A DNA stretch of 64,000 nucleotides from an uncultured Alphaproteobacteria bacterium. Its GTDB lineage: Bacteria > Pseudomonadota > Alphaproteobacteria > RF32 > CAG-239. Position 1 is the stretch's first letter. The number at the start of each line of letters is the position of its first letter. The position numbers were made by a program, and so were the translations under genes. Positions 34,587 through 54,802 of the stretch are shown here, piece after piece. The notes under the pieces are model-generated. The model had not been told where the DNA came from and did no database searches. It saw only the letters and a program-made list of their open reading frames with translations. The DNA lies in assembly GCA_910584385.1 (NCBI GenBank), contig CAJUAK010000003.1:9206-73205 (forward strand). Direction: 5' to 3'.

Positions 34587-36023
34587 ATGAAAAAATCCTG
34601 GTATAAATTTTTAGGCATTCACTTTATTCTTTGGAGCATTATTCCCCTATTGCGCGGCAGCCTGCCCATGGACAGCATTGAAGCAATTGTCTGGGGACAA
34701 ATCGGCGGGCTGGGAACAAATAAGCACCCGACATTTTCAGGGTTTCCCGCAGATTTCTTTTATTGGCTTTCCGGCGGCAGCGACTGGGCAATTTATGCCT
34801 TGAGCCAACTCTTTATTTTGCTTGGTTTTATTTATATTTTCCGTTTGGCAAAACTTTTTCTCAACGAAACAAAAGCCATTCTTTCCGTTATGCTTTTGGA
34901 AGGCGTTATCTATTATGGCTTTGCTTCTGCGGAATATAACGTAAATATTGTTTCTTTGGCACTTTGGCCGATGGCTTCCTTCTATTTCTGCCGCGCAGTA
35001 TTGGAAGGGCGCAAAGCGGACTGGGCATGGTTTGGATTGGCCGCCGGCGCCAACTTATGGAATAAGTATGTCAGCGGCATTCTCTTCCTGGCTATGGCAA
35101 TGTATCTCCTCTTTACAAGAAACGGGCGCAAGCAGCTTAAATCTTTCGGGCCTTATTGCAGCGCGGCCATTGCGGCTGTTGTTATCGCACCCCATGTTTA
35201 TTGGCTTTACAAGCATGATTTCTTTGTTATTTCATACTTTATGAGCCGAAGCGGCGAAAGCGGCGCTTGGTACGGGCATTTGCTCTACCCCTTGAAATTT
35301 ATACTAGCCCAGCTCGCTGCCGGAGCTTTGGCATTTATCATCTTCTTTGTTGCTTTCTTTGGCGCAAAAAAACAAAAAAACACCATGAGCCATCAGAAAA
35401 ACCAATTGCTTTTCTATTTGGGAATTTTACCGCTCATTTTGTTTGCGGGAACAGCGCTTATAAGCGGTTCTCCCCTTAAAAGCATGTGGGGTTCGCCGCT
35501 TCTCTATATGCTTGGCATTTTACTTTTTGCCGGCTTTAATTTTGAGCTTAAAGAAAACACCGTTAATAAAGCCATTCGCGGCGTTTATGCCTCTATGGCT
35601 TTGCTTGGCTTTGCCGCAGCAATGGTTTATTTTTTGAATAAAAGCGAAAAAATGCATTTTCCCAGAAATGATTTTGCTTATCAGGTTATGGAAAAGTGGA
35701 AAGCAGAAACAAATAATGCACCGTTGCCTTATACGGGCGGCGAAATCTGGTATGCGGCAAACCTTTCCTTGACGAGCCCCGACCATCCTTTTGTTATCTT
35801 GGACACTAACTTGAAAAACAACCCCTGGGTGGCGGATAAGGACCTTTATGCGAAAGGCGCCGTCATTTTTGTGGGACGCCCGGATGACTACGCCAGCGCC
35901 CACCAAAAATATCTGGCTGTTTCTCCGTTATTTTCTCAAAATATTACTTTTAAAAACCGGATTGGAAAATCCAAAAGCAAAAATGTTTACTTCTTTATTA
36001 TCTATCCGGGAGGAGGTTTCTAA
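34587..36023 (+). CDS. GT39/GT83-type (ArnT-like) polytopic membrane glycosyltransferase
   Basis: 478 aa with about 11 predicted TM stretches and an N-terminal PMT_2-like loop. First gene of a translationally coupled operon. Confidence 0.7.
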   Translation: MKKSWYKFLGIHFILWSIIPLLRGSLPMDSIEAIVWGQIGGLGTNKHPTFSGFPADFFYWLSGGSDWAIYALSQLFILLGFIYIFRLAKLFLNETKAILSVMLLEGVIYYGFASAEYNVNIVSLALWPMASFYFCRAVLEGRKADWAWFGLAAGANLWNKYVSGILFLAMAMYLLFTRNGRKQLKSFGPYCSAAIAAVVIAPHVYWLYKHDFFVISYFMSRSGESGAWYGHLLYPLKFILAQLAAGALAFIIFFVAFFGAKKQKNTMSHQKNQLLFYLGILPLILFAGTALISGSPLKSMWGSPLLYMLGILLFAGFNFELKENTVNKAIRGVYASMALLGFAAAMVYFLNKSEKMHFPRNDFAYQVMEKWKAETNNAPLPYTGGEIWYAANLSLTSPDHPFVILDTNLKNNPWVADKDLYAKGAVIFVGRPDDYASAHQKYLAVSPLFSQNITFKNRIGKSKSKNVYFFIIYPGGGF

Positions 36024-36988
36024 TGGCAAAAGAAAAGTTAAGCATTGTTGTTTCTGCTTACAACGAAGAGGCTAATATTGCCGCTTTATATAAAGAATTG
36101 CAAAAAACAATAAAGAAACTTCCCTTGAAAAAGGTTGAAATCATTTTTGTAAATGACGGCAGTTCCGATAAAACCTATGAAGAATGCCTGAAATTGCAAA
36201 AAAAAGACGCTTCTGTTAAAATTGTTAACTTCCAACGCAATTTCGGACATGAGATTGCTATGACAGCCGGCATGGATTATGCCAAAGGGGATGCCGTTGT
36301 CTTTATGGATGCCGATTTGCAGCATCCGCCGGCATATATTGAACAAATGGTAAAAGCTTGGCAGGAAGGTTCTGAAATTGTTCTAACCAAAAGGGTAGAC
36401 AATCTTTCGACATCAAAACTCTATAAATTTATGGCTGCTTCCTTTTATAAAATATTAAATATGCTTTCGGATACGCATATTCCTGAAAAAATGCCGGATT
36501 TTCGGCTTCTTGACCGTAAATATGTGGAATTTTTGAAAAACTTTAACGAACATGACCGCCTTTTCCGCGGATTGCTCAGTTGGGCCATGCCCCGGGACAA
36601 AGTAACCGTATTGGATTTTGTGGCACCGGAACGTTTTGCCGGGGAATCTAAATATAATTTTGCCAAGAGCCTGCAATTGGCATTAAACAGCATTGTGCAG
36701 TTTTCAGTCAAGCCTTTGCGATTTTCAATTTATCTGGGAATTTTGACCGCGATGCTTGCCGGATTGCTTGGCATTTATGTGATTGCCGAACACTTCATTT
36801 TAAATAAGCCCACCCCTGGCTATGCTACAATTATGACAACCATTATTTTCATCGGTTCTATCCAATTAATCATGCTGGGGATTATTGGCGAGTATATTGG
36901 CAAAATCCATATGGAAGTTAAAAACCGCCCGCTTTATTTGGCTGAATTTATTGAGAAAGAAGAAAAAGATGCTCAAAAAAATCATTAA
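36023..36988 (+). CDS. GT2 polyprenyl-phosphate sugar transferase (ArnC/LgmA/FlmF2-like)
   Basis: LSIVVSAYNEEANI, VNDGSSD, FMDADLQHPP, and two C-terminal TM helices. The ATG overlaps the upstream stop (TAATG). Confidence 0.85.
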   Translation: MAKEKLSIVVSAYNEEANIAALYKELQKTIKKLPLKKVEIIFVNDGSSDKTYEECLKLQKKDASVKIVNFQRNFGHEIAMTAGMDYAKGDAVVFMDADLQHPPAYIEQMVKAWQEGSEIVLTKRVDNLSTSKLYKFMAASFYKILNMLSDTHIPEKMPDFRLLDRKYVEFLKNFNEHDRLFRGLLSWAMPRDKVTVLDFVAPERFAGESKYNFAKSLQLALNSIVQFSVKPLRFSIYLGILTAMLAGLLGIYVIAEHFILNKPTPGYATIMTTIIFIGSIQLIMLGIIGEYIGKIHMEVKNRPLYLAEFIEKEEKDAQKNH

Positions 36989-37805
36989 TGCCGACGATTT
37001 TGGGATTTCTCCCGGCGTCAACACCGCAATCGCCGAGGCTTATAAAGACGGTATTTTAAATTCGACCAGCATTATGATTAATTTAAAATATGTCAATCAC
37101 GCCTTGCATCTGGCACAATCTATGCCAAACTTGAATATCGGGCTGCATATAAACCTGACAAACGAAACGCCGCTTTCTCCGGCAGAGGAACTTCCGCTAT
37201 TAGTAAACGAAAACGGCAAGTTTAAAAATGGCTTTGTTAATTTGCTCTTGCTTTCTTTCCTTAAGCCGCAAGAGTTGCGCAAACAGGCAGAAATAGAAAT
37301 CCGCCGGCAAATAGAGCTTGCGAAAACAATGGGAATTAACCTTTCCCATATTGACAGCCACCGCCATATCCATATGATTCCGCTCTTGTTTGACGTGGTA
37401 AAAAAATTGGCAGAAGAATATCAAATTCCCCGCATCCGGGTTGTTAACGAAAATATATTCAACACCTTACGGCATAATTGGAGTTTTGATTTTCTGTTTG
37501 ACGGCGGGCTCATTAAATATATGATTTTAAGGATGCTGGCTTTTTACAACAGATACCCCAGCGATACTTATTTTTACACCATTCTCTACACCTGCAAAAT
37601 CGGACGCAATCGTTTTAACAAACTAAAAATCCCTGCAAAATACAAAGCAATTGAAGTGGGAATCCATCCCGGACACCCGGATATTGACCGCAATTACGGA
37701 AAGGACATCTTTGACAATAACCTTTTGAACCATTTCCGGGAAATTGAATTTAATACGGTGATGGATAAAAATATCCTAAACGAGATTGTTGAGAATGATC
37801 GTTAA
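36969..37805 (+). CDS. YdjC/ChbG-family carbohydrate deacetylase (NaxD/LgmC-like)
   Basis: MLKKIINADDFGISPGVN..I and HIDSHRHIH motifs. The start at 36969 overlaps the GT2 gene by 20 nt. Confidence 0.85.
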   Translation: MLKKIINADDFGISPGVNTAIAEAYKDGILNSTSIMINLKYVNHALHLAQSMPNLNIGLHINLTNETPLSPAEELPLLVNENGKFKNGFVNLLLLSFLKPQELRKQAEIEIRRQIELAKTMGINLSHIDSHRHIHMIPLLFDVVKKLAEEYQIPRIRVVNENIFNTLRHNWSFDFLFDGGLIKYMILRMLAFYNRYPSDTYFYTILYTCKIGRNRFNKLKIPAKYKAIEVGIHPGHPDIDRNYGKDIFDNNLLNHFREIEFNTVMDKNILNEIVENDR

Positions 37806-38211
37806 ATCTTATCTGTTTTTAGAAAAAATCTGGTTTCGTTTTAACCAAAAAATCCGTTTTATACTCGTGGGCGGGTTTAACACGGTTTTGGCATATTGCT
37901 TGTTTGCCGGACTGTATCAATTTGCCGGGCTGAATTATAACCTGGCATTAATTACGCAAAACATCATCACAATCAATGTTTCATTTTTGACTATGCGTTA
38001 TTATGTTTTTCAGAGCCATGGCATTTTCTGGCGAGAATATGTGAAAACCTTCAGCGTTTATATCGGCATGTATTTTTTAAATGCTTTTGTTTTAAATTTA
38101 TTGGTCATCGTTTTAAAACTTCCGCCTTTAATTGCCCAAGCTGTTTATTTAACGGTTTCCACCATCACAACTTATCTGCTGCATAAATATTTTTCTTTTC
38201 GTCGGCCGTAA
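37795..38211 (+). CDS. GtrA-family membrane protein
   Basis: IRFILVGGFNTVLAY with four TM segments. The ATG at 37795 overlaps the YdjC stop. Confidence 0.8.
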   Translation: MIVKSYLFLEKIWFRFNQKIRFILVGGFNTVLAYCLFAGLYQFAGLNYNLALITQNIITINVSFLTMRYYVFQSHGIFWREYVKTFSVYIGMYFLNAFVLNLLVIVLKLPPLIAQAVYLTVSTITTYLLHKYFSFRRP

Positions 38212-38213: not shown

Positions 38214-41200
38214 TTATAAACAAGTGATATATTTATACTCGCCGTTTACTGCACCAACCAATGCTGCTTGTCCCGGGCATTTGTCTTCCGAATAAGACAT
38301 TGCATCAACTTTGCAGTATTTTCCTTTGTTTTCCTTGGTCTTCTTATCTTCACAGATATCTGCCGTATCCTGAACCAAGAGCGGTCCGCAGCTGTCTCCA
38401 TAGAAGGTATAGTTGCCTTCTTCATTTGGCGTGCTTGAGCGGCGATAGCATCTAAGCGTGCCTTCTTTTAATTCGGTCGTATCATTTCTCATATTCTTAC
38501 AAGACGATTCTGTTTTATCATATGCCGCCGGACAATTGCAGGCACTATAACGCGTTACATTCATTGAGCCATTTTTAACGCTAAATACTTTTGAGCCTGA
38601 TAATTCATAGGGTTCCTTACAATTATCTTCCGTATAAGGATATTGATTCAGCATATCTTTACCGATAGCACATTTATATAATGACTGGTATGTGCAATTT
38701 TTGGTACAGCTTACCCAATTATCCGCAAATTCACAATTATTCTCAACTTCTGCCAATGAATAAGGGTAAGTACATTGCCCATTATCAACACAGGGACAAG
38801 AGCCATTTGTATATTTTTTTGTTCCATTACCGTTTTCACTACAGAAATCTGCCCCGGGCTGTATGTTGTCAGAACATGTCACTGTATATTTGCTGGAACA
38901 GCTGCATTTTTCATAAAGAGTTACTTCCTTGCCGTCAATGCTTGTCGTACAACCATTTCCTAACGAATATTTCGCCGCATTTTCCGCCGTATCTCCGGGA
39001 TCTGTGCCATCACATTTATATTTGAAAGTTTCTCCGCAAGAACAGCTGCTGTATTTTGGCGTTACGACCTTATTTACTCCGTTATAGGTAATTTGTTCGC
39101 AAACGGCTTTACTGTCGCTTGGCGTTGTATCGCAAGTTTTATTAAATTCCGAAAGGCATTTGCAGCCTTTATAAAAACTTTTTTTAGTGCCGCTGCTGTC
39201 CTGGCTTTCACAATAATCATCTGCAGAATCTGGTATCTGCCCATTGCCATCACAAGTTTCTCTATATGCGCTTTCGCAAGTACAGCTTGCATAAACCGTT
39301 CTGCCAGAGCTTCCATCCGCATTTAACGGCGTGCATGCTGTTTCTTTTTCCGTATTTGCTGGGCATTGCAGATAGCTAACCGGGCAACGGCATTCTTTAA
39401 AGAGTTTGTTACCCATCGAATCTATACACCAATCCGTTCCCAAGGCGTCAGCATTGTATCCGGAACAGGTATATTTATAACCGTTTGATTTACAATCTGA
39501 CGTATCTTGGCATTCAGCGTATTTTATGCTTCCGTCTGCCGATGTACAACTTCTCCCTTTACCAACCTGCTGTGCATTGCAGGTTTTAAATATATTTTCC
39601 TCATCTTCCGAGCAATCAGCATTACCAACACATTTGCTGTATAAAGTCCCTTTTTCAGAATCATAACAAGATGTTGCATCTTCTGCCGGAGATGTTGACG
39701 AGCAGGAACTGTAATTTGAAGGGCAACGGCATTTATAATTAACATTGCCCTCTGCTGTCAGGCAAGGCGCATATTTTTCCTGATTATCTGCACAAGCTTC
39801 ACGATGTTTATCGGTGCATGAGGCTGCCGGAACAGTACAAGATTGGTAATAAGAAACGCCGTTTAATACGCAGGCACTGCCAACCCCGACTTCTTTGTCT
39901 TTGCAGATTTTATTGTAACCAGAAGCACAAGTGCATTTTTCAAAATAAGCCTGTCCGTTGCGCGTGCACATATTAACGCCAACCTGTAACGGATCGTTGC
40001 AAACCTCAGCCTCACCGTTGCGGCATTCGTTTTTGCTTACGCAAGATTGGTAATAATTATCGCCATCCAAGCTGCAAGGTTTGCCAACGCCAATCAAATC
40101 TCCCGAGCATTTTACCCATCCGTCCGGACACTTGCATGATTTATAATTAACAACATTTCCCTGATTATCCTGGCAGCCGTTAACGCCTTCCTGAAAATCG
40201 CCCAGGCATTGCTTTACATGCTGCCAATCGCAATCACTCTCTTTGCATTGGTAATAACGCCCACCGCAGCCATTGTCTTTAACTATTCCGGTCGGTTTTA
40301 ATCCTGATGGACAACCATAATAGTAGTCTGTCCAGTTCTCAGGGAGGGGATCGGGTGCACATTCGCAACTGCGGTATTTTCCTTGGCAAGGTGTTCCGAC
40401 ACCCCGGAATCTCTCGCCATCGCAAAGCTGATTATATTCTTCAGGGCAACTACAAAAGGCATAATATGCCGTATTTGATCTTGTTCCATCCGCATTAAAC
40501 GGGCGGCAAGATCCTCCGGAAACCACACCATCCGTACATTGCTGGCATTTTCCTTTGCCCGCAGGACAGTCATCGCCGGCAACGGTAGATCCGGAAGTAT
40601 AAATGTAGCTCGGATGACATTCACATCCCGTATATTTTCCGCCGCATTGTTTTCCGGTCAAGATCATACGGATAGGACAATTTTCTTCATCATAAATATA
40701 CTCTCTTCCCGGTTTGCAAATGCAGTTATACCGTTCGTTCCCTTGAGGATCTACACACAAGTGGGGTTCTGCTCCCTCGCCCAGCCTGTTGACACATTCT
40801 TCCGCTGTTCGGGTAGTATCCGGTCCGCAGGCTTCAAGCGGAGCACGCTCGCAAAATTGATATAACTTTGTTTCATTTTTGAGGCAATATGGCGGATTCC
40901 CGTTAGGAACAGCTAAAGGATAAATGCATTCAGTTTTGTAAACTGAAGTATCACATTGGCATTCATATTTTTTCTCGCCATGAAGCGAACAAACGACCGG
41001 TACGGAAGCTGTTCCGGCGATGTCTTTGCATCCCTCTTCATTATCAGATAACAGGGCTCCGTTGCTGCAAGGCCTGTAAATACAAGAAGCATATAATAAC
41101 TTGCCACTATCAAGCTTACAATATTCTTCAACGCTTTCAGGAACCATGCTTTGTGCATAGCAATCTTGAACAACTTGTCCATCCCAATGATCTTCTTTTT

Positions 41201-44200
41201 TAGTTTTGCAGCCACATGCATATTTTATTTCTTTTTCATTATTATTTAAACATTCGTAAGATGCTGCCAAGGGGCCAAAATGTTCTTGACATTTTTGTTG
41301 CGTATCCGCCGTTATGCCGCTGCAAGCTTCATAAGTACAAATATATTTTGTCTTGTTTTCTGCCAAAGAAGCCCCTCTGACAATGCAGGTCCTTTGATTA
41401 TTGAGTTCTATTCCTTTGCAAGGCCTGTCGCTCAATGCTTCGTCCGATTCTAAAGAAACTGCCGAACAATCTGAAGCAATATCTAATTCAGAGTAAACCC
41501 AATCTTCTTCATTATCAGATTCTAAAGTACACGGATTAGCGCCTATCTCTCCCGGGAATAATTTACGGTAGCCTTCCGGACATTTGCAATACCAAGCAGC
41601 TGCACGCGGCCCGCTTAAATCGCTATATAAGCATAAATGAGAGGATGCACCGTCAACTTGTTGGCACACACTTTCCGAAGAATAGACTTTTCGCCCATCA
41701 CATTTATAGCTCTCGCTAATCCACTCGCCAGCTTTATCATTACAGGTTTCACCAACAGCAATCAGCTCTTCTCCTACTTCACAGAATGTGCACCCTTGCT
41801 CTTTGGTTTTAAACTCAACAGGGCACTGGCACATATAACGAGTCGATGAAGCACCGGCAATGCCACAGGCAACTGGATGCCGGACAAAAGATTTTATCTC
41901 AATGTCTTCCGGTTTTGGAGTCTCTGAAACTTTAACCGAAACACTTTGGAACGTTTGTTCACACAATGGGCTTTCCTGGCTGTCTGACGAACAAGGGATA
42001 CCACAATATTGATATTTGTTTTCTTGGTCATAATAACAAACGTGTCCGATACCCGACTCGCCATCCTGACACTCATTAGATGTCTTGTAGCCATCAATTT
42101 CTTTACAATTTCCCAATGCATCACAAATTATTTGCTTTGTTGGGCAAGAACAAACCTTATTAATCTTCGAATTTGTTTCATCCCAGCAGGCAGAATCCAT
42201 ATCTTTGGACTGGATACATTTTGGTGAAGTGCTTAAGGGCAGAAAACTGTCATCACAATCATAAGTTTCTACGGTAACGCCATTTTCTACGCTGGTTTTG
42301 GTTTTTGCCGTTCCTAGCCATTTGTCAAAGGCACAACAGGTAATACGATCGCCTGTACAGGTTTCGCTCATGCGGTGAGTGTCCTTGTTTGCACAATAAG
42401 TATCCGCACGCCAGTTTTTGCTGGATTTGCATTGCCCAATAGCAGGAGAATCTATTTCAAAACTCCCGGCTTCTAAACAATTATCCCCTAAAGGAGAAAA
42501 TTGACAGCAAGGATCTGTCGTTTTACAAGGTGTCGGCGTTCCTCTTTGTGAAGCCTTATTACAATAAAAATTATCATTTGCCGAATATGACCTATAATAA
42601 CCACTTTGATATGACTGCCATACTAAACCATATTGCCTTTTACTTTCAGGATTTTTTTGTCCTTTATCTGTAATTGTGTAAGCATATCGCCCTTCATTGC
42701 CATCTAACTCATCTACAATTTCATCATTTTCATCAAATATGTAATAGTCAAATTCATTCTGATAAAAGGCAGGATAACATTTCTTTTGAGTATTTGCAAT
42801 TTCAATACTATTTCCTACTTCCTGAGCTCTTTTCTGGCAACTTCCCTCTAAAGGCGTGGTAGAACCTTTTTCTACATAACAACATCTTTGATTTGCATTT
42901 AATTTATATGTACCATCAAACTTACAATTTGAAGCAACAAACCCATTCTCTACGCAATAAAAGCCACTTTCAGGCACGGCTTCCGTTCTGATGACTGAAC
43001 AAGAACCCTTTCCATCACGTGTATCGGCATTTCCAATAAATGTACTGCAACTGCTTGAAGAATCTGCATCCGCATTAAATTTGCAACAAAGGCGTTCATC
43101 TTCCGGAATATCTGTGCAGGAATAAGTAGGAACCGTTATTTTACTCTCATCATATTTTACAGGATACTCTCCTATTAACATCCCGTTTTCTTCAGATACT
43201 TTCCGAGCACAGAATTCGCCTTCTTTATGGATATACTGAATTTTACAACTGCTGCCTTCCGCTTTCGTATAACTCCGTGAACATAGGCGACCAGAATCTC
43301 CTGAAGGAAGATTATAACTATAAGGACCGGTTTGGAATCTTCCATCAATAACATGGCAGCAAACTGTCAAGGGAGAATCTGTCGTATTAGCCGGACAGTC
43401 TGTTTCATAATAGCCGGCTACTTGACATATGCCATCCAAAGTCGTGAAATTATCTTTATCGTTCAACTGGCAGAGACTGCTATCTTTTGATAAGGAAACC
43501 TCATAAGATTTTGATATTTCGCTATCACCACTTTTTATTGTTACCTTGCATTGCCGCTGTCCCCAAATATCCAGTTTGCAAAGCCCATAAATTATGGATT
43601 GGCATGCTTGAAAATCAGAAGCTATATTACAGTCAGCCACCACATATTTATCTTGGGCATTAGCGCTATTAAAGCAAAATTGCCCACTTTTGGGCGTTAA
43701 AACGCTTAAATCTTCATTATTAGCATCCTGGCATTGGTTCAGGATTTCCTTGCTGGTTGCTTTCCAATTGTTTGAGCACTGGATTGATGTATAATTATTT
43801 TCCTGAAAATAACAACATTTTGCAGCTGATTTTGTAGCTCCTGCCGTATCGTAAGAAACAGCAACACCATCTTTGGTATAACAACTGTTGAGCCATTTTC
43901 CGTTTGCATCTGCGCAATAATATCCCGTCTCAAAAGGAGGCTGTGCCTTTTCAATACACTTTCCCGTTCCTACATTATCCGGGTCTTCTTCCCAACTATC
44001 ATAACATGTTTCTTCGCCTTCATAATCAATAAACTCACTAGCAAATTCACAACACTTTTTTGCTCCTTTGGCTTCATCACAACTTCCGACATAGTAACCA
44101 TCTTCAGTAGCACAAAAGTGTCCATTGCTCGGCGCCATTTTTTGGGTACATAATGTTCCCTCCCAGGTATAGGCTGGACTGCAAAAACGCCAATGATTAT

Positions 44201-45794
44201 CATTTATATCTTCACTTTCAAAAGGTGTAATTGAGCAGCAACGAATTTCTTTATTATAATTTGCGGAACAAGGCTGTTGAACATATCCAGAAGCGGTATA
44301 ATCTAATGTTTTATTATGTAAATCTCCACCAGCTAAGGAGCAGGTTTGCCCTCCATCTTTTGACCAGAGATGATATCTCACACCGTCACTTAAAGTACAT
44401 TCAAATCCCCCTTTCTCATAAGGAGATTTCTTTCCCTCTGATTTACACTTTGGCCAAATTTCTTTGCCATCACAATATGCTGTTGTTGCGTAGTCACCCC
44501 ATATTAATGGTATTCTTGCAGAAGTTTTTTTAATACAAATACCTGTAGGGACATCCGCAAAAGCAAGGGTTTCGATATGGGAGGTTTGGGCGGAAGCCAT
44601 GTAAATTTTATTTTCTGCCGAAGCTTGGTTTTCGATATTGTCCTGGCAGGCTTCATTATCCGGATGGATATTGCCGCCGGGAACGGTATCATCCCGTTTT
44701 GAATCGCAAGAATCCAAGCAAAACTGGTTATAAACATTATCCGTGCCATTATGGTTATAATAGCATTTATACCCTTTCGGCGTTTGACTTGCCGTACATT
44801 TTTTATATATGGGGCCGTTATCATCAGCGGCGCAGCTGCAAAATGAAATTATACGCAAAGCGCTCCCTGATTTTGACATACATTTTGTTTCATTCTGCCC
44901 ATAGGGGCAAGAAACCGCCGCCATACCACTTTCAGAAGCATTTACAACAGAAGGGTATTCGCCCTGCAATGCCGCTAACTTTGCCTCGTCAACTTCTCCG
45001 CTGTCGGTTAAGGCATCTTGACGGAGAACATCTTTGCAATCTGGCAGGCAGTATTCATATTTATAAAAGTTTTCATTTACAGTATGGCTTAGCCCGGTCG
45101 AGGCGTCCAGCGCGGTTTGCGCATCCCAAGGGCAAGCTTTGAAACCGGCCGGATGCACTGCATAAGTTTTTTCATTACCGTCTTCTTTATAAGTTTCTGA
45201 TTGGCAAATGAAACCATAGGAGCTTTCTGCCATCGTTTCAGAATAAAACCGGCGCGCATCAATATTTGTTTCGCTGCTGTCGCCTGCATAATATTTATAT
45301 CTGGAGTTGCAGGTATAAGAATCATAAGGGGAGCCATTTAATTCGCATTGGCGCCAGGGAACGCTGCTTTGTGTTCCATCCCGCCCGTTTACGGAAAGCC
45401 GGTCGTTTTTTCCGCAGCCTTCATCGCCGGCGCAGGCAACATATTTGCCCAGGCAGGAACGCCCTGAGCCCGTACTGCCTGAACAGTCTTCGCTATAATT
45501 ATGCGGGCAATCGCAACGCCATGCATCTCCCATGCCGCAGCTTACCACTGAAAAAACCGCACCGGCCGGGTTTAAATCGCTATATTTGCTTTGGCAAAGG
45601 GCAGCAGCTTCAACTTTGGTCGCCGCTTCAACATAATAGTCGCCGCATCCAGTTACCGAATAAGTAGAATGCTTAGAGTTATTTGCAGGCGCCGTAAAAA
45701 TCGTCTCTGTAATGGGCACAACGGCAGAACTGGCCGGATGCGCTTGCGCAAACACCAATATCGATAAGAATATTAGCAAACTATTCTTAAACAT
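38214..45794 (-). CDS. Giant secreted cysteine-rich modular protein (2,526 aa), family unknown
   Basis: Uninterrupted 7,581-nt ORF. It has a Sec signal peptide (MFKNSLLIFLSILVFAQA) and about 214 Cys by hand count. There are 8 CC-doublet modules and 21 C-x-C modules. I saw no TM segment, beta-barrel or known sorting signal. Confidence 0.85.
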   Translation of the reverse strand: MFKNSLLIFLSILVFAQAHPASSAVVPITETIFTAPANNSKHSTYSVTGCGDYYVEAATKVEAAALCQSKYSDLNPAGAVFSVVSCGMGDAWRCDCPHNYSEDCSGSTGSGRSCLGKYVACAGDEGCGKNDRLSVNGRDGTQSSVPWRQCELNGSPYDSYTCNSRYKYYAGDSSETNIDARRFYSETMAESSYGFICQSETYKEDGNEKTYAVHPAGFKACPWDAQTALDASTGLSHTVNENFYKYEYCLPDCKDVLRQDALTDSGEVDEAKLAALQGEYPSVVNASESGMAAVSCPYGQNETKCMSKSGSALRIISFCSCAADDNGPIYKKCTASQTPKGYKCYYNHNGTDNVYNQFCLDSCDSKRDDTVPGGNIHPDNEACQDNIENQASAENKIYMASAQTSHIETLAFADVPTGICIKKTSARIPLIWGDYATTAYCDGKEIWPKCKSEGKKSPYEKGGFECTLSDGVRYHLWSKDGGQTCSLAGGDLHNKTLDYTASGYVQQPCSANYNKEIRCCSITPFESEDINDNHWRFCSPAYTWEGTLCTQKMAPSNGHFCATEDGYYVGSCDEAKGAKKCCEFASEFIDYEGEETCYDSWEEDPDNVGTGKCIEKAQPPFETGYYCADANGKWLNSCYTKDGVAVSYDTAGATKSAAKCCYFQENNYTSIQCSNNWKATSKEILNQCQDANNEDLSVLTPKSGQFCFNSANAQDKYVVADCNIASDFQACQSIIYGLCKLDIWGQRQCKVTIKSGDSEISKSYEVSLSKDSSLCQLNDKDNFTTLDGICQVAGYYETDCPANTTDSPLTVCCHVIDGRFQTGPYSYNLPSGDSGRLCSRSYTKAEGSSCKIQYIHKEGEFCARKVSEENGMLIGEYPVKYDESKITVPTYSCTDIPEDERLCCKFNADADSSSSCSTFIGNADTRDGKGSCSVIRTEAVPESGFYCVENGFVASNCKFDGTYKLNANQRCCYVEKGSTTPLEGSCQKRAQEVGNSIEIANTQKKCYPAFYQNEFDYYIFDENDEIVDELDGNEGRYAYTITDKGQKNPESKRQYGLVWQSYQSGYYRSYSANDNFYCNKASQRGTPTPCKTTDPCCQFSPLGDNCLEAGSFEIDSPAIGQCKSSKNWRADTYCANKDTHRMSETCTGDRITCCAFDKWLGTAKTKTSVENGVTVETYDCDDSFLPLSTSPKCIQSKDMDSACWDETNSKINKVCSCPTKQIICDALGNCKEIDGYKTSNECQDGESGIGHVCYYDQENKYQYCGIPCSSDSQESPLCEQTFQSVSVKVSETPKPEDIEIKSFVRHPVACGIAGASSTRYMCQCPVEFKTKEQGCTFCEVGEELIAVGETCNDKAGEWISESYKCDGRKVYSSESVCQQVDGASSHLCLYSDLSGPRAAAWYCKCPEGYRKLFPGEIGANPCTLESDNEEDWVYSELDIASDCSAVSLESDEALSDRPCKGIELNNQRTCIVRGASLAENKTKYICTYEACSGITADTQQKCQEHFGPLAASYECLNNNEKEIKYACGCKTKKEDHWDGQVVQDCYAQSMVPESVEEYCKLDSGKLLYASCIYRPCSNGALLSDNEEGCKDIAGTASVPVVCSLHGEKKYECQCDTSVYKTECIYPLAVPNGNPPYCLKNETKLYQFCERAPLEACGPDTTRTAEECVNRLGEGAEPHLCVDPQGNERYNCICKPGREYIYDEENCPIRMILTGKQCGGKYTGCECHPSYIYTSGSTVAGDDCPAGKGKCQQCTDGVVSGGSCRPFNADGTRSNTAYYAFCSCPEEYNQLCDGERFRGVGTPCQGKYRSCECAPDPLPENWTDYYYGCPSGLKPTGIVKDNGCGGRYYQCKESDCDWQHVKQCLGDFQEGVNGCQDNQGNVVNYKSCKCPDGWVKCSGDLIGVGKPCSLDGDNYYQSCVSKNECRNGEAEVCNDPLQVGVNMCTRNGQAYFEKCTCASGYNKICKDKEVGVGSACVLNGVSYYQSCTVPAASCTDKHREACADNQEKYAPCLTAEGNVNYKCRCPSNYSSCSSTSPAEDATSCYDSEKGTLYSKCVGNADCSEDEENIFKTCNAQQVGKGRSCTSADGSIKYAECQDTSDCKSNGYKYTCSGYNADALGTDWCIDSMGNKLFKECRCPVSYLQCPANTEKETACTPLNADGSSGRTVYASCTCESAYRETCDGNGQIPDSADDYCESQDSSGTKKSFYKGCKCLSEFNKTCDTTPSDSKAVCEQITYNGVNKVVTPKYSSCSCGETFKYKCDGTDPGDTAENAAKYSLGNGCTTSIDGKEVTLYEKCSCSSKYTVTCSDNIQPGADFCSENGNGTKKYTNGSCPCVDNGQCTYPYSLAEVENNCEFADNWVSCTKNCTYQSLYKCAIGKDMLNQYPYTEDNCKEPYELSGSKVFSVKNGSMNVTRYSACNCPAAYDKTESSCKNMRNDTTELKEGTLRCYRRSSTPNEEGNYTFYGDSCGPLLVQDTADICEDKKTKENKGKYCKVDAMSYSEDKCPGQAALVGAVNGEYKYITCL

Positions 45795-45813: not shown

Positions 45814-45853
45814 ATACTGCTATGCAGTATAACAATTTTACTTTTTTTGGCAA
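45814..45853 (-). promoter_or_regulatory. Promoter of the giant gene with an overlapping perfect palindrome (candidate operator)
   Basis: Minus strand: TTGCCA (45848-45853), 16-nt spacer, TATACT (45826-45831). ATACTGC-TAT-GCAGTAT (45814-45830) spans the -10 and the start region. Confidence 0.5.
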
Positions 45854-45903: not shown

Positions 45904-46107
45904 TCAAATCAGGCTTTGCTTCTCTTCTGATTGCAATTCTTTAATATAACTGCGAATATCATTTTCGCATGTGCCGCAACAAGTGGAACATCCTGTTTTT
46001 TCTTGGATCTGTTTAAAATCTTTGGCTCCGGATTCAAATGCTTTTCTGATTTCTTCGGCCGTAACATGCATGCAGTGGCAGAGCACCGTATTATCTTTTA
46101 TATCCAT
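45904..46107 (-). CDS. bfd: Bacterioferritin-associated ferredoxin-like [2Fe-2S] protein
   Basis: 67 aa. VLCHC..VT..EI...........I....G.STCCGTC is the Bfd cysteine pattern. Confidence 0.8.
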   Translation of the reverse strand: MDIKDNTVLCHCMHVTAEEIRKAFESGAKDFKQIQEKTGCSTCCGTCENDIRSYIKELQSEEKQSLI

Positions 46108-46448
46108 TTTTATCTCCTTTTTTAATATACTTTGTATATATGTTTACGCTGTGCCAAATAACACCGCCTGCTTCATAAAAAATATTCTATCTTTAAGCCC
46201 TCACATTTAAAGCGTGCTGTTTTTTCTATTGCTGGATTCTATTTTTTCTTACTTCGACGGCGCCGTCATATTCCAACTCATTGATTTTACATAACTTCAA
46301 AACAAAGGCTTTAATTATGTCCTTCTTTTACTAACCAATTTCTACACCATGTACGATTTTTTCGATATCTGATATTGTTTTTTGCTGATATACTTTTTTA
46401 AAATGCATCACCATAATATAAGCAACAAATAAACACGGAGACATGATT

Positions 46449-46670
46449 ATGAAAAATGATATCAGAGATACGAAAAATGACGTTATTGAAAGGAATATTG
46501 TTTTAATCAGCAAAATCTATGAAAGCTTTGAAGTCTTGGAGGAAACCCTTGGAGGCCTTAAGCTTGAAGAACCCCTCTTTATTATTAACGCTGCAAAAAA
46601 ATCTTTTGCAAACAGTGTTTATAACAGCATTAAAGGCAATGACCTTTATAAAGCGCATTTCAAAAATTAA
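46449..46670 (+). CDS. Small hypothetical protein, paralog A (73 aa)
   Basis: MKNDIRDTKNDVIERNIVLISKIYESFEVLEETLGGLKLEEPLF... The SD ACGGAG lies 8 nt upstream of the ATG at 46449. About two-thirds identical to paralog B. Confidence 0.7.
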   Translation: MKNDIRDTKNDVIERNIVLISKIYESFEVLEETLGGLKLEEPLFIINAAKKSFANSVYNSIKGNDLYKAHFKN

Positions 46671-46695
46671 AATTATTATCAATTTATCCCCTCAT

Positions 46696-46739
46696 CCTGA
46701 ATATTTGCCTTCCCCCTCTTAAATATTCAGGATTTTTTT
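46696..46739 (+). terminator. Terminator of paralog A
   Basis: cctgaatattt ... aaatattcagg stem plus a T-run. Confidence 0.85.
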
Positions 46740-46879
46740 ATATTCTAAAAACCGTCCATATAAAACAGATACTCAAGCATAGAGTGTACGAATTTTACGA
46801 TAGCTGTTGCCGTTTTTTACTTATATACTTTTTTTGCGCCCCGTTTAATAATATAAGCATGACAACAAAGGAGGCTAAA

Positions 46880-47101
46880 ATGAAAAAAGATATGAGAGAC
46901 GAAACAGATAACGTTATTGAAAGAAATATCGTTTTAATCGGCAAGATTTACGAAAGCTTTGAAGCTCTGGAAGAAACTCTCGGAACCCTCAAGCTTGAAG
47001 AACCTCTCTTTTTAACTTATGTTGCCAAAAAAGCTTTCGCAAACAGCGTTTACAACAACCTCAAAAACGATAACACATACAAGACTAGGTTTAATAACTA
47101 A
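46880..47101 (+). CDS. Small hypothetical protein, paralog B (73 aa)
   Basis: MKKDMRDETDNVIERNIVLIGKIYESFEALEETLGTLKLEEPLF... The SD AAGGAGG lies at 46868-46874. Confidence 0.7.
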   Translation: MKKDMRDETDNVIERNIVLIGKIYESFEALEETLGTLKLEEPLFLTYVAKKAFANSVYNNLKNDNTYKTRFNN

Positions 47102-47124
47102 AAAATGACTATTTTACTCCCTGT

Positions 47125-47168
47125 CCTGAATATTCTCTTCCCCCTCTTTGAATATTCAGGATTTTTTT
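47125..47168 (+). terminator. Terminator of paralog B
   Basis: cctgaatatt ... aatattcagg stem plus a T-run. Confidence 0.85.
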
Positions 47169-47169
47169 A

Positions 47170-49122
47170 TTACTTCATATAGTTCAACAAAGACGCATTT
47201 AAGGCTTGTTGTAAAGCGGCATATGAACTATTTAGCGTGTTATAAGCCATTATTGCCTTGGTCAAAGCCTCTTCCCTGTTAACATTCTTAAGCGAATCGA
47301 CACTATTTTCCAGATTTGTTTTAACCTGAGTCAAATTATCATTGGCATTGTTCAAAACAATATAGTTAGAATTTATTTTCGCCTGAATGGTATATAAATC
47401 GGCATTTTTTCCTTCCGCGTTTTTACCGCCGTTAAAAATACCTTCGCTTACCAAATCCAATGCCTCGTTTATTCTGTCAACGACTGTCTGCGGATCTATT
47501 AAGCTGTCCAAATCATCCGCAGGGTCTCTTGTGTCGACCAAATTGCCCTGAGCGATGGTTCCCAAAGCTCTGAACAATTTTTCAAAGGCCGGGTCTTTGG
47601 CATTGATATCCATCGTTACCGACTGGTTTTCGGTTATCATTCTTTCTGTCGACAAATCTCCGCCGCGGTAATAAGATTCGGCGCTCATTTCCCAGTTAGG
47701 AGAATCAATTGTAATATCAATCCAGCGGTCAGGATTCATCGTTACATAAAGCTCTTTGCCATCTGCGCTGACGCCGGTTACCTGGACATTTTCAGCAATA
47801 TTCCGGTTTATATCCTGAAAACCGTTCATGTTTATAACTGCCCCCACCGGAAAAGAAGTGCTGAAAGTTACATTATTTGTAACGCCGCCGTCGGTATATT
47901 CCCCATTGGGAAGTGTCGGGTCAGCCTGAGGGCGAATCGGCGTTTTTTCATCGAAAGTTATTGTCCGCCCGTCTTCTGAAACAGATTTTATGATATAAGC
48001 ACCGTTTTTATCATCTCCGGCATTATTAATCACCAGCGTATCTCCGGCGCTCAAAGAATTGAAGGCTCCGTATTCCTGCGCATAAATTGTGTTATTCGCC
48101 GCATCAAAAGTGATGTCTCCGGTTGTTTTTTCATTAGCCTTCACGGCTTCTTTTAAGAAAGCTCCGGCATTTTCTGCGGTAATAACGCCATGGTTACCGC
48201 CTTCAGGCGCTGTGCTAAGCGTTATTTTTCCGGTCTCGCGGGAAGTAACATTCCGGTTGCTCAAATTGGCACTGGTATTTTGCGGGTATTGGATATTTAT
48301 TCCGTCATAATAGCTCTGGAACTCTTCCAATGTGTTAAACGGGAAGCTGATGGGCGCCTGTGAGGAAACGCCGCCGCCAAATATATATTTCCCGTTAACA
48401 TATGTGTTTAAGCTGTCCGCAATCATTTTCATTGCCGAAAAGGCGCTGGTTTGCAACTGCTGCATATTAAGGTACTGGTCTTTGCCCATGATATGCGGTT
48501 CTCCCGTTGCCACATTTGGCGAATCCAAAACCGTCGATGTGCCGTTTACCGTATACAGCGGAAAAGTAAACTTGTTCCCTTCAAAAGCAAAATCCGGATT
48601 ATCTGCCGAAAATTTCTGCTTTAAAGCTTCAACAACTTCCGTACCATAATCATCTGAATTCGGATCAAGAGCGCCGATATCAATATTTGTATCCAACGCG
48701 GCGTCTGCTGCAAAAGTATATTGCGTCCCGTTTAAGGTCAAAGTCTTCCCGATCAGGCTTTCGCCTTTGCTAAAGACGAGCTCGCCTCCTGTATAATCCG
48801 GGGTAATGTTCGGCAAATCCTGGCCGCTGAAATCATTTAGAATCGATTTGAAATCATTAATCGACTTGTCAATCGCTTCCACAGAAGTATTTAACGCTTT
48901 TATCTCGACTTCCAGAATTTTGTTATTTTCCATAAAGTTGCTGGTAACGCCCAGAGCGGCCTCCAGATTGACAATGTTATAGGCACTCATGCCATAACCT
49001 GAATAATTCGGCGCTTTCAAGCCTGTTGTAGCCTGGAATGTATATAAATCAAGCTGATATTGGTTATTTAACGTGTGCCGCGTTAAATTCATCTGACTCG
49101 CATAAGTGGGAACCCTAACCAT
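47170..49122 (-). CDS. flgL: Flagellar hook-associated protein 3 (FlgL), unusually long (about 650 aa)
   Basis: The N-terminal VRVPTYASQMNLTRHTLNNQYQLDLYTFQATTGLK and the C-terminal flagellin-like helix ...YNTLNSSYAALQQALNASLLNYMK. The SD AGGAGG (49129-49134) precedes the ATG at 49122. Confidence 0.8.
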   Translation of the reverse strand: MVRVPTYASQMNLTRHTLNNQYQLDLYTFQATTGLKAPNYSGYGMSAYNIVNLEAALGVTSNFMENNKILEVEIKALNTSVEAIDKSINDFKSILNDFSGQDLPNITPDYTGGELVFSKGESLIGKTLTLNGTQYTFAADAALDTNIDIGALDPNSDDYGTEVVEALKQKFSADNPDFAFEGNKFTFPLYTVNGTSTVLDSPNVATGEPHIMGKDQYLNMQQLQTSAFSAMKMIADSLNTYVNGKYIFGGGVSSQAPISFPFNTLEEFQSYYDGINIQYPQNTSANLSNRNVTSRETGKITLSTAPEGGNHGVITAENAGAFLKEAVKANEKTTGDITFDAANNTIYAQEYGAFNSLSAGDTLVINNAGDDKNGAYIIKSVSEDGRTITFDEKTPIRPQADPTLPNGEYTDGGVTNNVTFSTSFPVGAVINMNGFQDINRNIAENVQVTGVSADGKELYVTMNPDRWIDITIDSPNWEMSAESYYRGGDLSTERMITENQSVTMDINAKDPAFEKLFRALGTIAQGNLVDTRDPADDLDSLIDPQTVVDRINEALDLVSEGIFNGGKNAEGKNADLYTIQAKINSNYIVLNNANDNLTQVKTNLENSVDSLKNVNREEALTKAIMAYNTLNSSYAALQQALNASLLNYMK

Positions 49123-49132
49123 CATACACCTC

Positions 49133-54798: not shown

Positions 54799-54802
54799 AT
54801 CT

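What the first reader, a model, noticed from the sequence alone, without database searches (positions are those of the whole stretch)
38214..45794. Giant (2,526-aa) secreted, extremely cysteine-rich modular protein with no family I can assign
A single uninterrupted 7,581-nt ORF takes up 12% of the window. It has a Sec-type signal peptide (MFKNSLLIFLSILVFAQA), and I see no later hydrophobic segment. By my residue-by-residue count there are about 214 Cys, roughly 8.5%. That is an even number, so every Cys could be disulfide-paired. The rest of the protein is dominated by G, Y, D, N, S, T, K and E, and long aliphatic core stretches are scarce. This is the composition expected of strings of small disulfide-stabilised knots.

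I recognise no enzyme motif, RTX or Ig/cadherin repeat, autotransporter barrel, LPXTG, T9SS or PEP-CTERM sorting signal. The protein ends ...NGEYKYITCL.

The neighbourhood is ordinary housekeeping, with no mobile-element genes next to it. The gene has its own promoter.

Bacterial proteins of this size are usually Ig-like, RTX or beta-helix adhesins, so a 2.5-kaa Cys-knot array is very unusual. It could be a new class of surface, periplasmic or host-interaction protein. A metal or redox sink is another possibility.
Basis: partly seen in the sequence, partly recalled or inferred. Interest (0 to 1): 0.9.

Follow-up and report, generated by a model that had tools for sequence, protein, structure and literature searches.

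The report
Giant disulfide-rich secreted gut-bacterial protein
This is a real 2,526-residue secreted protein built from dozens of tiny disulfide-stapled modules; it belongs to an unannotated family found in the species-level MAGs sampled here only in uncultured gut Alphaproteobacteria, and its outer parts are swapped between close species like a surface antigen.

Summary
The ORF at 38214-45794 (minus strand) encodes 2,526 aa with 214 Cys (8.5%, against 0.9% in the window's other ORFs). It has a Sec signal peptide and no other hydrophobic segment.

It matches nothing in Pfam, NCBIfam, PDB sequences or PDB/viral folds, but it is not an orphan. An exhaustive search of 1.84 billion proteins found about 35 relatives, mostly giants of 2,000-3,000 aa with 7.5-9.5% Cys. 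All 30 genomic loci lie in gut Alphaproteobacteria MAGs, with one copy per locus, usually right after an acrAB-type efflux operon.

The family shares a conserved core of ~35-aa, 4-Cys beta-hairpin modules in which nearly all Cys are invariant. It also shares a motif just after the signal cleavage site. The mature proteins have an even Cys count in 39 of 41 members (p=4e-10), which argues that every Cys is disulfide-paired.

The N-proximal and C-terminal parts are mosaic. In sister genomes whose flanking genes are 94-99% identical, blocks of the giant fall to 18-45% identity.

Best reading: an oxidatively folded, protease-resistant, fibre-like surface or extracellular protein under diversifying selection, probably an adhesin or coat. 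The export route and ligand are unknown. It is a new variant of a known kind.

The parts
38214..45794 (-). Complete giant ORF: 2,526 aa, 214 Cys, stop codon at 38214-38216
   Evidence: identical to P0002, which was seen on 33 contigs
45826..45853 (-). Promoter-like site TTGCCA-16-(TG)TATACT about 30 nt upstream of the ATG (candidate only)
   Evidence: best-scoring match in the region, but the total number of matches equals the chance expectation; sequence read
45741..45794 (-). Sec-type signal peptide, residues 1-18 (MFKNSLLIFLSILVFAQA | HP)
   Evidence: Homologous signal peptides ending A-x-A occur in all relatives. Cys inside the signal peptides must be removed to obtain even Cys counts.
45642..45725 (-). 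Family-conserved mature N-terminus: motif 1 AVVPITETIF (residues 24-33), a short linker, and motif 2 KHSTYSVTGCG (residues 41-51). Candidate sorting or anchoring tag.
   Evidence: alignment of 37 family N-termini; consensus AYA|AV(V/T)PIx(D/E)Tx(F/Y)...HTSTYSGVxCG
42075..45641 (-). Species-specific N-proximal region (about residues 52-1240). Cys-rich, but with no detectable similarity even to the closest relatives.
   Evidence: no Pfam domains here or in the equivalent region of 29 relatives
42333..44354 (-). Module B array (residues 481-1154): eight 'CC' dipeptides, five copies confidently matched by the HMM, about 60-90 aa each, 6 Cys ending in CC
   Evidence: The module B HMM finds no copy in 30 relatives. 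CC dipeptides occur only at 519-1153.
39243..40817 (-). Family-conserved collinear core (residues 1660-2184), 43-58% identical to 19 relatives, nearly all Cys invariant
   Evidence: alignment A1; phmmer coverage map; AF2 model with pLDDT 71.7, an all-beta hairpin string
38790..40547 (-). Canonical module A tandem array (residues 1750-2335): about 17 units of 29-46 aa with 4 invariant Cys; pattern x6-C-x(8-10)-GxGxxC-x3-G-x2-Y[YF]-x2-C-x(1 or 5-6)-C
   Evidence: iterated HMM on the protein itself; module alignment A5; second AF2 model with pLDDT 70-90 for residues 2140-2300
38217..38789 (-). C-terminal region (residues 2336-2526): degenerate Cys-rich modules, conserved only with the nearest clade, ends ...YKYITCL. 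No barrel or anchor domain was detected.
   Evidence: alignment A4; AF2 gives low confidence for the last ~220 aa; no Pfam hit in this region of 26 members

Best explanation
The gene encodes a member of an unannotated, lineage-restricted family of giant extracytoplasmic proteins of uncultured gut Alphaproteobacteria.

Proposed mechanism:
1. The precursor is exported by Sec, and the signal peptide is cut after A-x-A.
2. In the oxidising periplasm all 214 Cys form about 107 disulfides.
3. This staples roughly 60-70 small beta-hairpin modules into a long, rigid chain that resists proteases and bile. The modules are a 4-Cys module A and a species-specific 6-Cys module B.
4. A conserved central array (about residues 1600-2300) serves as the shaft or scaffold.
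5. The N-proximal and C-terminal parts are mosaic cassettes exchanged by recombination. They face the outside world (host mucus or glycans, IgA, phage, other microbes) as an adhesin or coat.
6. The conserved mature N-terminus (AVVPIxETxF...HTSTYSGVxCG) is the likeliest sorting or anchoring tag.

Shown: the ORF is real; the signal peptide; the module architecture; the family and its phyletic range; the Cys parity; the mosaic variation; the absence of known domains.

Inferred: disulfide formation; the fibre shape; surface exposure; the adhesin or coat role; the function of the N-terminal tag. The route across the outer membrane is unknown.
For: - Real, intact, conserved gene: the identical protein was called on 33 contigs, and the variants compared with the window's protein differ by at most 4 residues, none at a Cys.
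- Export: a canonical signal peptide is conserved in all relatives.
- Full disulfide pairing: the mature Cys count is even in 39 of 41 members (p=3.9e-10). That includes 7 members whose total is odd only because of one Cys in the signal peptide. Nearly all core Cys are invariant across 20 sequences.
- Modular beta architecture: HMM-defined modules and two AF2 models made of beta-hairpins with low pTM, as expected for an extended chain.
- Specific family, not generic Cys-rich noise: only 35 hits in 1.84e9 proteins, 23 of them at E<=1e-30, mostly 2,000-3,000 aa.
- Phyletic range: 30 loci, all in gut alphaproteobacterial MAGs, with one copy per locus.
- Exposure and selection: in L019/L020 the flanking genes are 94-99% identical (AcrB 99%) and the giant's core is 97-98% identical, yet two blocks are only 18-45% identical. 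One of these blocks matches more distant genomes better than it matches the sister genome. The closest relatives of the window protein share no detectable similarity over its first ~1,240 aa.
- Adhesin lead: three distant members carry Lcl_C domains. Lcl_C is the GAG-binding domain of the Legionella adhesin Lcl (PMC11162425).
- Analogy: Cys-rich Giardia VSP coats resist gut proteolysis and extreme pH (PMC6341118).
Against: - No outer-membrane translocation or anchoring device was found: no autotransporter or TPS domain, T1SS signal, T9SS CTD, lipobox or LPXTG. No dedicated secretion gene appears in any of about 35 contexts. Surface exposure is therefore unproven, and a periplasmic location is not excluded.
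- Within the window's own species the protein is almost invariant, so there is no evidence of rapid within-host antigenic switching.
- There are no expression or proteomic data.
- The models have only moderate confidence (pLDDT 64-72), and the coordinates could not be inspected for Cys-Cys geometry.
- The Lcl_C lead comes from distant members only; this protein has no such domain.
- No Dsb gene lies in the 64-kb window. The rest of the genome was not available.
Confidence: 0.5

Rival explanations
1. Periplasmic or envelope-integrated structural protein: a disulfide-cross-linked scaffold that stiffens or spans the envelope. This would be functionally like the chlamydial cysteine-rich outer-membrane complex (OmcB/OmcA), and not surface-exposed.
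For: - The protein has only a Sec signal and no recognisable outer-membrane export or anchor element.
- No secretion partner appears in any context.
- The chromosomal position is anciently conserved, next to the envelope genes acrAB and often flgI-J-N-K-L and a Mur ligase.
- There is one copy per locus, and the gene sits among core-genome-like housekeeping genes.
Against: - Mosaic cassette replacement at 18-45% identity between sister genomes is hard to explain for a buried structural protein.
- If extended, a ~2,500-aa chain of small modules would be far longer than a periplasm is wide (inference).
- There is no Pfam similarity to chlamydial OmcB or any envelope family.
- The acrAB linkage is positional, not operonic: gaps are 140-200 nt, an opposite-strand gene intervenes in L038, and in this window the linkage is broken by a flagellar block.
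Confidence: 0.22
2. Metal- or redox-buffering protein (a giant metallothionein-like thiol sink), as the first reader offered as an alternative.
For: Very high Cys content with CxC and CC motifs. A BFD-like [2Fe-2S] gene lies just upstream in this species.
Against: - Export to the periplasm.
- An even mature Cys count in 39 of 41 members. Disulfide pairing requires this; metal clusters do not.
- Invariant Gly, Pro and Tyr framework residues and predicted beta-hairpins. Metallothioneins lack aromatics and regular secondary structure (general knowledge).
- His is only 1%.
- CxC and CC counts are not above shuffle expectation: 21 and 8 observed, against 16.7 and 16.8 expected.
- The BFD gene was not detected next to the giant gene in any other locus.
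Confidence: 0.05
3. Polymorphic toxin or effector: a conserved delivery shaft carrying an exchangeable C-terminal toxic domain, as in CDI/Rhs/MafB systems.
For: The C-terminal ~500-700 aa are replaced between sister genomes.
Against: - The variable C-terminal parts remain Cys-rich module arrays and carry no toxin Pfam domain in 26 members.
- The N-proximal part is variable too.
- There is no downstream immunity-like small ORF: in the window the stop codon is 2 nt from the convergent GtrA gene.
- No TPS, Rhs or T6SS elements were found.
Confidence: 0.04
4. Accessory of a neighbouring machine: either a flagellum-associated structure or a component of the AcrAB efflux assembly. The gene sits where an outer-membrane-factor gene would normally follow acrB.
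For: - The order MalQ-HAD-TetR-AcrA-AcrB->giant occurs in about 27 of 30 loci and in the distant P0034.
- The flgL?-K-N-J-I block is adjacent in at least 12 loci, in three different arrangements.
Against: - The adjacency survives rearrangements only loosely. In this window the flagellar block separates acrB from the giant; in 12 or more loci no flagellar gene lies within 10 kb.
- Nothing TolC-like or flagellar was detected in the protein.
- The flanking genes are far more conserved than the giant's variable parts, which is more typical of conserved synteny in a narrow clade than of co-function.
Confidence: 0.05

Closest known systems
Tandem EGF-like / TNFR-CRD / complement-CCP module strings of eukaryotic extracellular proteins (e.g. 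Delta-like 1, Pfs25, NELL, TNFR1)
   Same: - Beads-on-a-string arrays of 30-45-aa, disulfide-stapled, mostly beta-hairpin modules.
- The local motif CxC-P-x-G-[YW]-x(2-3)-C recalls the C-terminal half of EGF signatures.
- These proteins are the nominal top structural hits.
   Different: - No significant fold match: best E=0.011, TM<=0.1.
- No Pfam EGF/TNFR hit at E<=1.
- Zero PROSITE EGF_1 or EGF_2 pattern matches.
- Profile searches of PDB sequences with A1 and A5 find no EGF or TNFR chains even at E<=10.
- The module has 4 Cys, not 6.
- The origin is bacterial, and no eukaryotic proteins appeared among the 35 exhaustive-search hits.
Giant non-fimbrial bacterial adhesins (SiiE, LapA, BapA; BIg/RTX type, T1SS substrates; PMC6272769)
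   Same: Comparable size (2-5 kaa), a long tandem array of small beta modules, a presumed fibre shape, and expected adhesion or coat roles. Gut bacteria commonly carry them.
   Different: - Those adhesins are Cys-poor and Ca2+-stabilised, lack an N-terminal Sec signal and use a C-terminal T1SS signal with dedicated ABC/MFP/OMF genes.
- This protein has a Sec signal and about 107 presumptive disulfides.
- It has no BIg, RTX or cadherin domains and no cognate transporter next to it.
Protozoan cysteine-rich variable surface coats (Giardia VSPs; Paramecium/Tetrahymena immobilisation antigens)
   Same: About 8-12% Cys in regular spacing and an extracellular location in the gut lumen (Giardia). VSPs are protease- and pH-resistant (PMC6341118). 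There is a conserved part plus highly variable parts. Paramecium i-antigens are similar in size (the last point is from my own knowledge).
   Different: - There is no homology.
- VSPs are defined by CXXC motifs, a C-terminal TM helix and a CRGKA tail. This protein has only two CxxC, no TM segment, and ends in ITCL.
- VSPs are multigene families with switching. Here there is one gene per locus, and it is nearly invariant within the species.
Legionella collagen-like adhesin Lcl and other Lcl_C (PF07603, ex-DUF1566) proteins
   Same: Three distant members of this family (P0032, P0041, P0044) combine the shared N-terminal motif and Cys-rich modules with Lcl_C domains. Lcl is a Sec-dependent, extracellular, GAG-binding adhesin (PMC11162425).
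   Different: The window protein and its 30 closer relatives have no Lcl_C domain and no collagen repeats.
Chlamydial cysteine-rich envelope proteins (OmcB/OmcA)
   Same: Sec-exported, Cys-rich envelope proteins of a Gram-negative bacterium, with function depending on disulfide cross-linking (general knowledge).
   Different: OmcB is about 550 aa with about 4% Cys and has its own Pfam families, none of which hit here. It has no modular repeat array.

Membership tests
EGF-like domain (Pfam EGF clan; PROSITE PS00022/PS01186) | Profile or signature match: C-x-C-x(5)-G-x(2)-C or C-x-C-x(2)-[GP]-[FYW]-x(4,8)-C | tested here: not met
   No Pfam family at E<=1. Zero matches to either PROSITE pattern; only a relaxed, shorter variant matches. 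Profile searches of PDB sequences find no EGF chains.
EGF-like domain (Pfam EGF clan; PROSITE PS00022/PS01186) | Six Cys per ~40-aa domain, forming three disulfides (1-3, 2-4, 5-6) | tested here: not met
   Module A has four invariant Cys per 29-46 aa unit.
EGF-like / TNFR-CRD / CCP folds | Significant structural superposition on a solved member | tested here: not met
   Foldseek against PDB with two AF2 models: no hit at E<=1e-3, best E=0.011, TM<=0.1. Model confidence is only moderate, so a remote relationship is not excluded.
T1SS giant adhesins (RTX/BIg; SiiE, LapA type) | BIg, cadherin or RTX repeats; no N-terminal signal peptide; adjacent ABC/MFP/OMF transporter | tested here: not met
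   No such Pfam or NCBIfam domains. A cleavable Sec signal is present. The adjacent MFP/RND pair is AcrAB-type, not an ABC exporter, and in this window it is separated from the gene.
Type V secretion (autotransporter / two-partner TpsA) | C-terminal beta-barrel or N-terminal TPS domain; Cys-poor passenger | tested here: not met
   No Autotransporter or Haemagg_act hits. The C-terminal model shows no barrel, though at low confidence. The protein is 8.5% Cys.
Lcl_C (PF07603) adhesins | Presence of the Lcl C-terminal domain | tested here: not met
   Absent from the window protein and from the N- and C-terminal regions of 26-30 relatives. Present only in distant members: P0041 is above the gathering score; P0032 and P0044 are below it.
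Myxococcus-type cysteine-rich repeat (NCBIfam TIGR02232) and other curated bacterial Cys-rich repeats | NCBIfam or Pfam profile match | tested here: not met
   No NCBIfam family at E<=1 and no Pfam family. That TIGR02232 is in the library is assumed from my own knowledge.
Giardia VSP-like proteins | Many CXXC motifs, a C-terminal TM helix and a CRGKA tail | tested here: not met
   Only two Cys-Cys gaps of 3, i.e. two CxxC. No TM segment. The C-terminus is ...YKYITCL.
Metallothionein-like metal-binding proteins | Cys clusters without aromatic residues or regular secondary structure; cytoplasmic; Cys bound to metal rather than paired | tested here: not met
   Tyr 6.2%, Trp 1% and a signal peptide. 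Beta-hairpin models. Even-parity constraint on the mature Cys count. Metal binding itself cannot be tested in silico.
The new family itself (giant Cys-rich proteins of gut Alphaproteobacteria) | Sec signal plus A|AV(V/T)PIx(D/E)Tx(F/Y) mature N-terminus; collinear module A core with invariant Cys; 2-3 kaa; 7.5-9.5% Cys | tested here: met
   Window protein: signal and motif; core 43-58% identical to 19 members with the Cys columns invariant; size and Cys content within the family range.

The most novel reading that the evidence does not exclude
A bacterial counterpart of protozoan cysteine-rich variable surface coats: one giant protein with about 107 disulfides that gut Alphaproteobacteria display as a protease-proof fibre or coat. 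Its exposed cassettes are reshuffled between lineages under immune, phage or ligand pressure. It reaches the surface by a route not yet described for Sec-dependent, fully oxidised substrates, possibly addressed by the conserved AVVPIxETxF N-terminal tag. The ~35-aa, 4-Cys module would then be a new extracellular fold class that originated in bacteria.
Probability: 0.25. Interest if true: 0.85.

Novelty: new variant of a known kind. Interest (0 to 1): 0.62.

Why it matters
The uncultured gut Alphaproteobacteria that carry this gene are known only from MAGs. From memory, "CAG:495" belongs to the RF32/CAG-239 lineage. They are widespread in human and animal guts, and nothing is known about how they interact with the host.

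This gene is the largest in the 64-kb window. It is conserved in all 30 species-level MAG loci recovered here, and it is the only gene in its neighbourhood that shows cassette-like hypervariability. That makes it the prime candidate for their host-, phage- or community-facing surface molecule.

It also challenges a habit of thought. Giant bacterial surface proteins are expected to be Cys-free Ig-like, RTX or beta-helix arrays. A 100-plus-disulfide design implies heavy dependence on periplasmic oxidative folding in an anaerobic gut organism, and an export route that tolerates a folded, cross-linked substrate.

The small, very stable 4-Cys module could be useful as a protease-resistant scaffold. 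The family is absent from Pfam, NCBIfam and PDB, so defining it would annotate about 35 very large 'hypothetical' proteins.

Tried and rejected
- BLASTP self-comparison found no internal repeats. The modules are too divergent; HMM iteration was needed.
- The search for homologous proteins with the full protein and with the core alignment A1 returned only the protein's own cluster, one fragment (P0026) and one weak hit (P0046). The word index misses this family, so the third search was not spent.
- Pfam, NCBIfam and PDB-sequence scans of the protein found nothing. Pfam scans of the variable regions of all relatives gave only chance-level hits: zf-U1, LZ3wCH, DUF282. PDB profile searches with A1 and A5 gave nothing or chance nanobody hits.
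- Foldseek against PDB (two models) and BFVD gave no significant hit.
It was rebuilt as A4, but the last ~220 residues remained low-confidence.
- Protein O-glycosylation by the convergent PMT_2-GT2-YdjC-GtrA operon: rejected as a conserved partner. It is adjacent only here and in L022, and it looks like an Arn/Lgm-type lipid A aminosugar modification set (my own knowledge).
- Identity with the eukaryotic 'CysRRep' (Cx6-9Cx5-7Cx8-11Cx7-8CC; bioRxiv 10.64898/2026.06.07.730663): module B also ends in CC, but its first two spacings (x10-15, x11-14) fall outside that pattern. No alignment-level comparison was made.
- Phase variation or an assembly artefact from DNA repeats: there are no tandem or long direct repeats inside the gene.
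- Literature searches found no description of this family.
Full report
**1. Observation**

The window contains an uninterrupted ORF at 38214-45794 on the minus strand. The other 43 ORFs in the window average 0.89% Cys.

The N-terminus MFKNSLLIFLSILVFAQA has the n/h/c layout of a Sec signal with A-Q-A at -3/-1. No other 19-residue window has a Kyte-Doolittle mean above 0.93.

Cys spacing is regular. 69% of gaps are 6-17 residues, against 42 +/- 3% in shuffles. A module signature, CxC-x3-[FYW]-x(2,12)-C, occurs 14 times against 1.1 expected.

The ORF is not an artefact:
- The window's protein is identical to P0002, which was called on 33 contigs from NCBI, ENA and Logan.
- Six other full-length or near-full-length variants from independent assemblies differ from it by 1-4 residues, never at a Cys. 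The cluster representative P0001 also differs from the window protein, but was not compared residue by residue.
- Only one assembly splits the gene.
- There are no long DNA repeats in the gene.

**2. Organism and neighbourhood**

A permuted alpha-proteobacterial tmRNA lies at 5934-6277, and GC content is about 44%. All related loci carry titles such as 'uncultured Alphaproteobacteria bacterium', 'uncultured Azospirillaceae bacterium' or 'Proteobacteria bacterium CAG:495', from human (Hadza, Nepal, Brazil), roe-deer and other gut metagenomes. From memory, CAG:495 belongs to the RF32/CAG-239 gut lineage.

The window is otherwise housekeeping:
- aminoacyl-tRNA synthetases, PBP1A, RNase E, YhdP, MlaC and heptose/LPS genes;
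- a PMT_2-GT2-YdjC-GtrA operon convergent with the giant gene;
- upstream on the same strand, acrA/acrB, a Mur ligase, and flgI, flgJ-like, flgN, flgK and a 656-aa probable flgL.

There are no mobile-element genes and no Dsb gene in the window. The best sigma-70-like match of the region lies about 30 nt upstream of the ATG, consistent with the gene having its own promoter, though that is not proof.

**3. Anatomy**

Iterated HMMs on the protein itself define two modules.

Module A:
- About 17 clean tandem copies lie at residues 1750-2335, with degenerate copies elsewhere.
- Each unit is 29-46 aa with four invariant Cys and framework Gly, Tyr and Pro.
- The pattern is roughly x6-C-x(8-10)-GxGxxC-x3-G-x2-Y[YF]-x2-C-x(1 or 5-6)-C, often followed by P-x-G-[YW].

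Module B:
- There are eight 'CC' dipeptides at residues 519-1153. The HMM confidently matches five copies, each about 60-90 aa with six Cys ending in CC.
- It was found in none of the 30 relatives.

The first ~500 residues and the last ~190 are irregular but equally Cys-rich.

**4. Family**

The curated libraries gave nothing: Pfam, NCBIfam and PDB sequences at E<=1, and PDB profile searches with the core and module alignments.

An exhaustive phmmer search of residues 1327-2526 against 1.84 billion representatives found only 35 proteins at E<=1e-3, 23 of them at E<=1e-30. Most are 2,000-3,000 aa with 7.5-9.5% Cys, and no EGF-type eukaryotic proteins appeared.

A scan of species-representative genomes found 30 loci, each with one such giant gene. 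The family shares:
(i) a signal peptide ending A-x-A;
(ii) a conserved mature N-terminus, A|AV(V/T)PIx(D/E)Tx(F/Y), then a Ser/Gly-rich linker and HTSTYSGVxCG;
(iii) a collinear core equivalent to residues ~1600-2300, 43-58% identical to the window protein, with nearly every Cys invariant.

**5. Are the Cys disulfide-bonded?**

If every Cys is paired, the mature protein must have an even Cys count. After removing the predicted signal peptide, 39 of 41 non-redundant family members have an even count (binomial p=3.9e-10). Seven of them have an odd total only because of a single Cys inside the signal peptide.

This result supports both cleavage at the predicted site and complete pairing. Together with the invariant Gly/Pro/Tyr framework, 1% His and the predicted beta structure, it argues against a metallothionein-like sink.

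**6. Structure**

AlphaFold2 on the core with the 20-sequence alignment gave mean pLDDT 71.7, with 368 of 525 residues at 70 or above. The model is a string of beta-hairpins with pTM 0.35, as expected for an extended multi-module chain.

A second model of residues 2140-2526 is confident (70-90) for the A modules. It is poor for the last ~220 residues, where no barrel or anchor domain emerges.

Foldseek found no significant match in PDB or BFVD. The nominal top hits are eukaryotic beads-on-a-string proteins (NELL, complement CCPs, TNFR CRDs, Delta-like 1, Pfs25, Entamoeba lectin) and viral fibres. That is a likeness of style, not demonstrated homology. PROSITE EGF patterns give zero matches, and the module has four Cys rather than six.

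**7. Context across genomes**

In about 27 of 30 loci the order is MalQ-HAD-TetR-AcrA-AcrB->giant on one strand, with a 140-200 nt gap. In at least 12 loci this is followed by a convergent flgL?-K-N-J-I-Mur block.

The distant member P0034 keeps the acrAB position, but with an opposite-strand gene in between. In this window the Mur/flagellar block lies between acrB and the giant.

Other distant members sit in unrelated housekeeping contexts, one of them after a TrbC/VirB2-like gene. So the position is anciently conserved but not operonic. No dedicated secretion, anchoring or immunity partner was seen anywhere.

**8. Variation pattern (the most informative result)**

The closest relatives of the window protein (L002, L017) align only from residue ~1240 onwards. 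The N-terminal half is unrelated.

In sister genomes L019 and L020:
- flanking genes are 94-99% identical (AcrB 99%), and the giant's core is 97-98% identical;
- two blocks (about columns 540-960 and 1750 to the end) are only 18-45% identical;
- L019's first variable block matches L028 and L024 (51-52%) better than L020, which does not reach its top seven hits; the reciprocal L020-to-L019 match is 41.5%.

Other close pairs show the same conserved-core, variable-flank mosaic. This is cassette or allele exchange, the pattern typical of exposed molecules under diversifying selection. Within the window's own species, however, the protein is essentially invariant.

**9. Functional leads**

Three distant members that share the N-terminal motif and some modules carry Lcl_C (ex-DUF1566) domains. 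In Legionella Lcl this is the glycosaminoglycan-binding head of an extracellular adhesin (PMC11162425).

Cys-rich Giardia VSP coats are resistant to gut proteases and extreme pH (PMC6341118). That gives a rationale for a disulfide-dense design in the intestine.

**10. Conclusion**

The best-supported reading (about 0.5) is this. The protein is Sec-exported and oxidatively folded into a protease-resistant, fibre-like surface or extracellular protein. A conserved module A shaft carries recombining variable parts that serve adhesion, coating or evasion. The conserved mature N-terminus is the candidate sorting or anchoring tag.

The main rival (about 0.2) is a periplasmic or envelope structural role, which the missing outer-membrane export device keeps alive. 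Metal or redox sink, polymorphic toxin and flagellar or efflux accessory readings are each unlikely.

In kind, it is a giant modular extracytoplasmic protein, which is a known kind. It is built on a chemistry (about 107 disulfides) and modules not represented in Pfam, NCBIfam or PDB, and it is restricted to an uncultured gut lineage. I therefore rate it a new variant of a known kind.

Noticed in passing
window 46350-47170: A ~430-bp tandem duplication (75-82% identical) lies in the intergenic region between the probable flgL and the giant gene. Each copy holds a small plus-strand ORF (46443-46670, 75 aa; 46784-47101, 105 aa; no Pfam hit), followed by a strong hairpin CCTGAATATT...AATATTCAGG and a T-run.
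   Followed up: partly
window 47170-49140 (-): A 656-aa ORF directly after flgK has no Pfam hit, yet it is conserved next to flgK in 12 loci (cluster 6). It is probably a highly divergent FlgL/hook-associated protein 3.
   Followed up: partly
window 34587-38211 (+): PMT_2 (ArnT-like GT-C), GT2, YdjC-like deacetylase and GtrA-like flippase form an operon. It resembles Arn/Lgm-type lipid A aminosugar modification (my own knowledge). GtrA's stop codon is 2 nt from the giant's stop codon (convergent). The operon is adjacent to the giant only here and in L022.
   Followed up: partly
window 5934-6782: A permuted two-piece alpha-proteobacterial tmRNA (tag peptide ANDNYAPVAVAA) is immediately followed by the gene for the SspB adaptor.
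   Followed up: no
window 45904-46107 (-): A 67-aa BFD-like [2Fe-2S] ferredoxin gene sits just upstream of the giant's promoter-like site. A tblastn search with it found no match next to the giant gene in any of the other 30 loci.
   Followed up: partly
window 52154-57913 versus loci L002-L031: Relative to most relatives, the Mur-ligase/flgI-J-N-K-L block has been relocated and inverted, so that it lies between acrB and the giant gene. Three different arrangements of the same blocks exist across the clade.
   Followed up: yes
L032/L033 4496-4876: The distant, Lcl_C-bearing family member P0041 lies two genes downstream of a TrbC/VirB2-type pilin gene, with two unannotated small ORFs around it.
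   Followed up: no
window 42333-44354 (-), residues 481-1154: The 6-Cys 'CC' module B is amplified only in this species. Its ...C-x(6-21)-CC ending loosely recalls the eukaryotic 'CysRRep' pattern Cx6-9Cx5-7Cx8-11Cx7-8CC (bioRxiv 10.64898/2026.06.07.730663), but the first two spacings differ. No alignment-level comparison was made.
   Followed up: partly
L019 and L021 giant genes: These are the only two of 41 family members with an odd mature Cys count (183 and 173). This could reflect a sequencing error, a genuine free Cys or an intermolecular disulfide.
   Followed up: no
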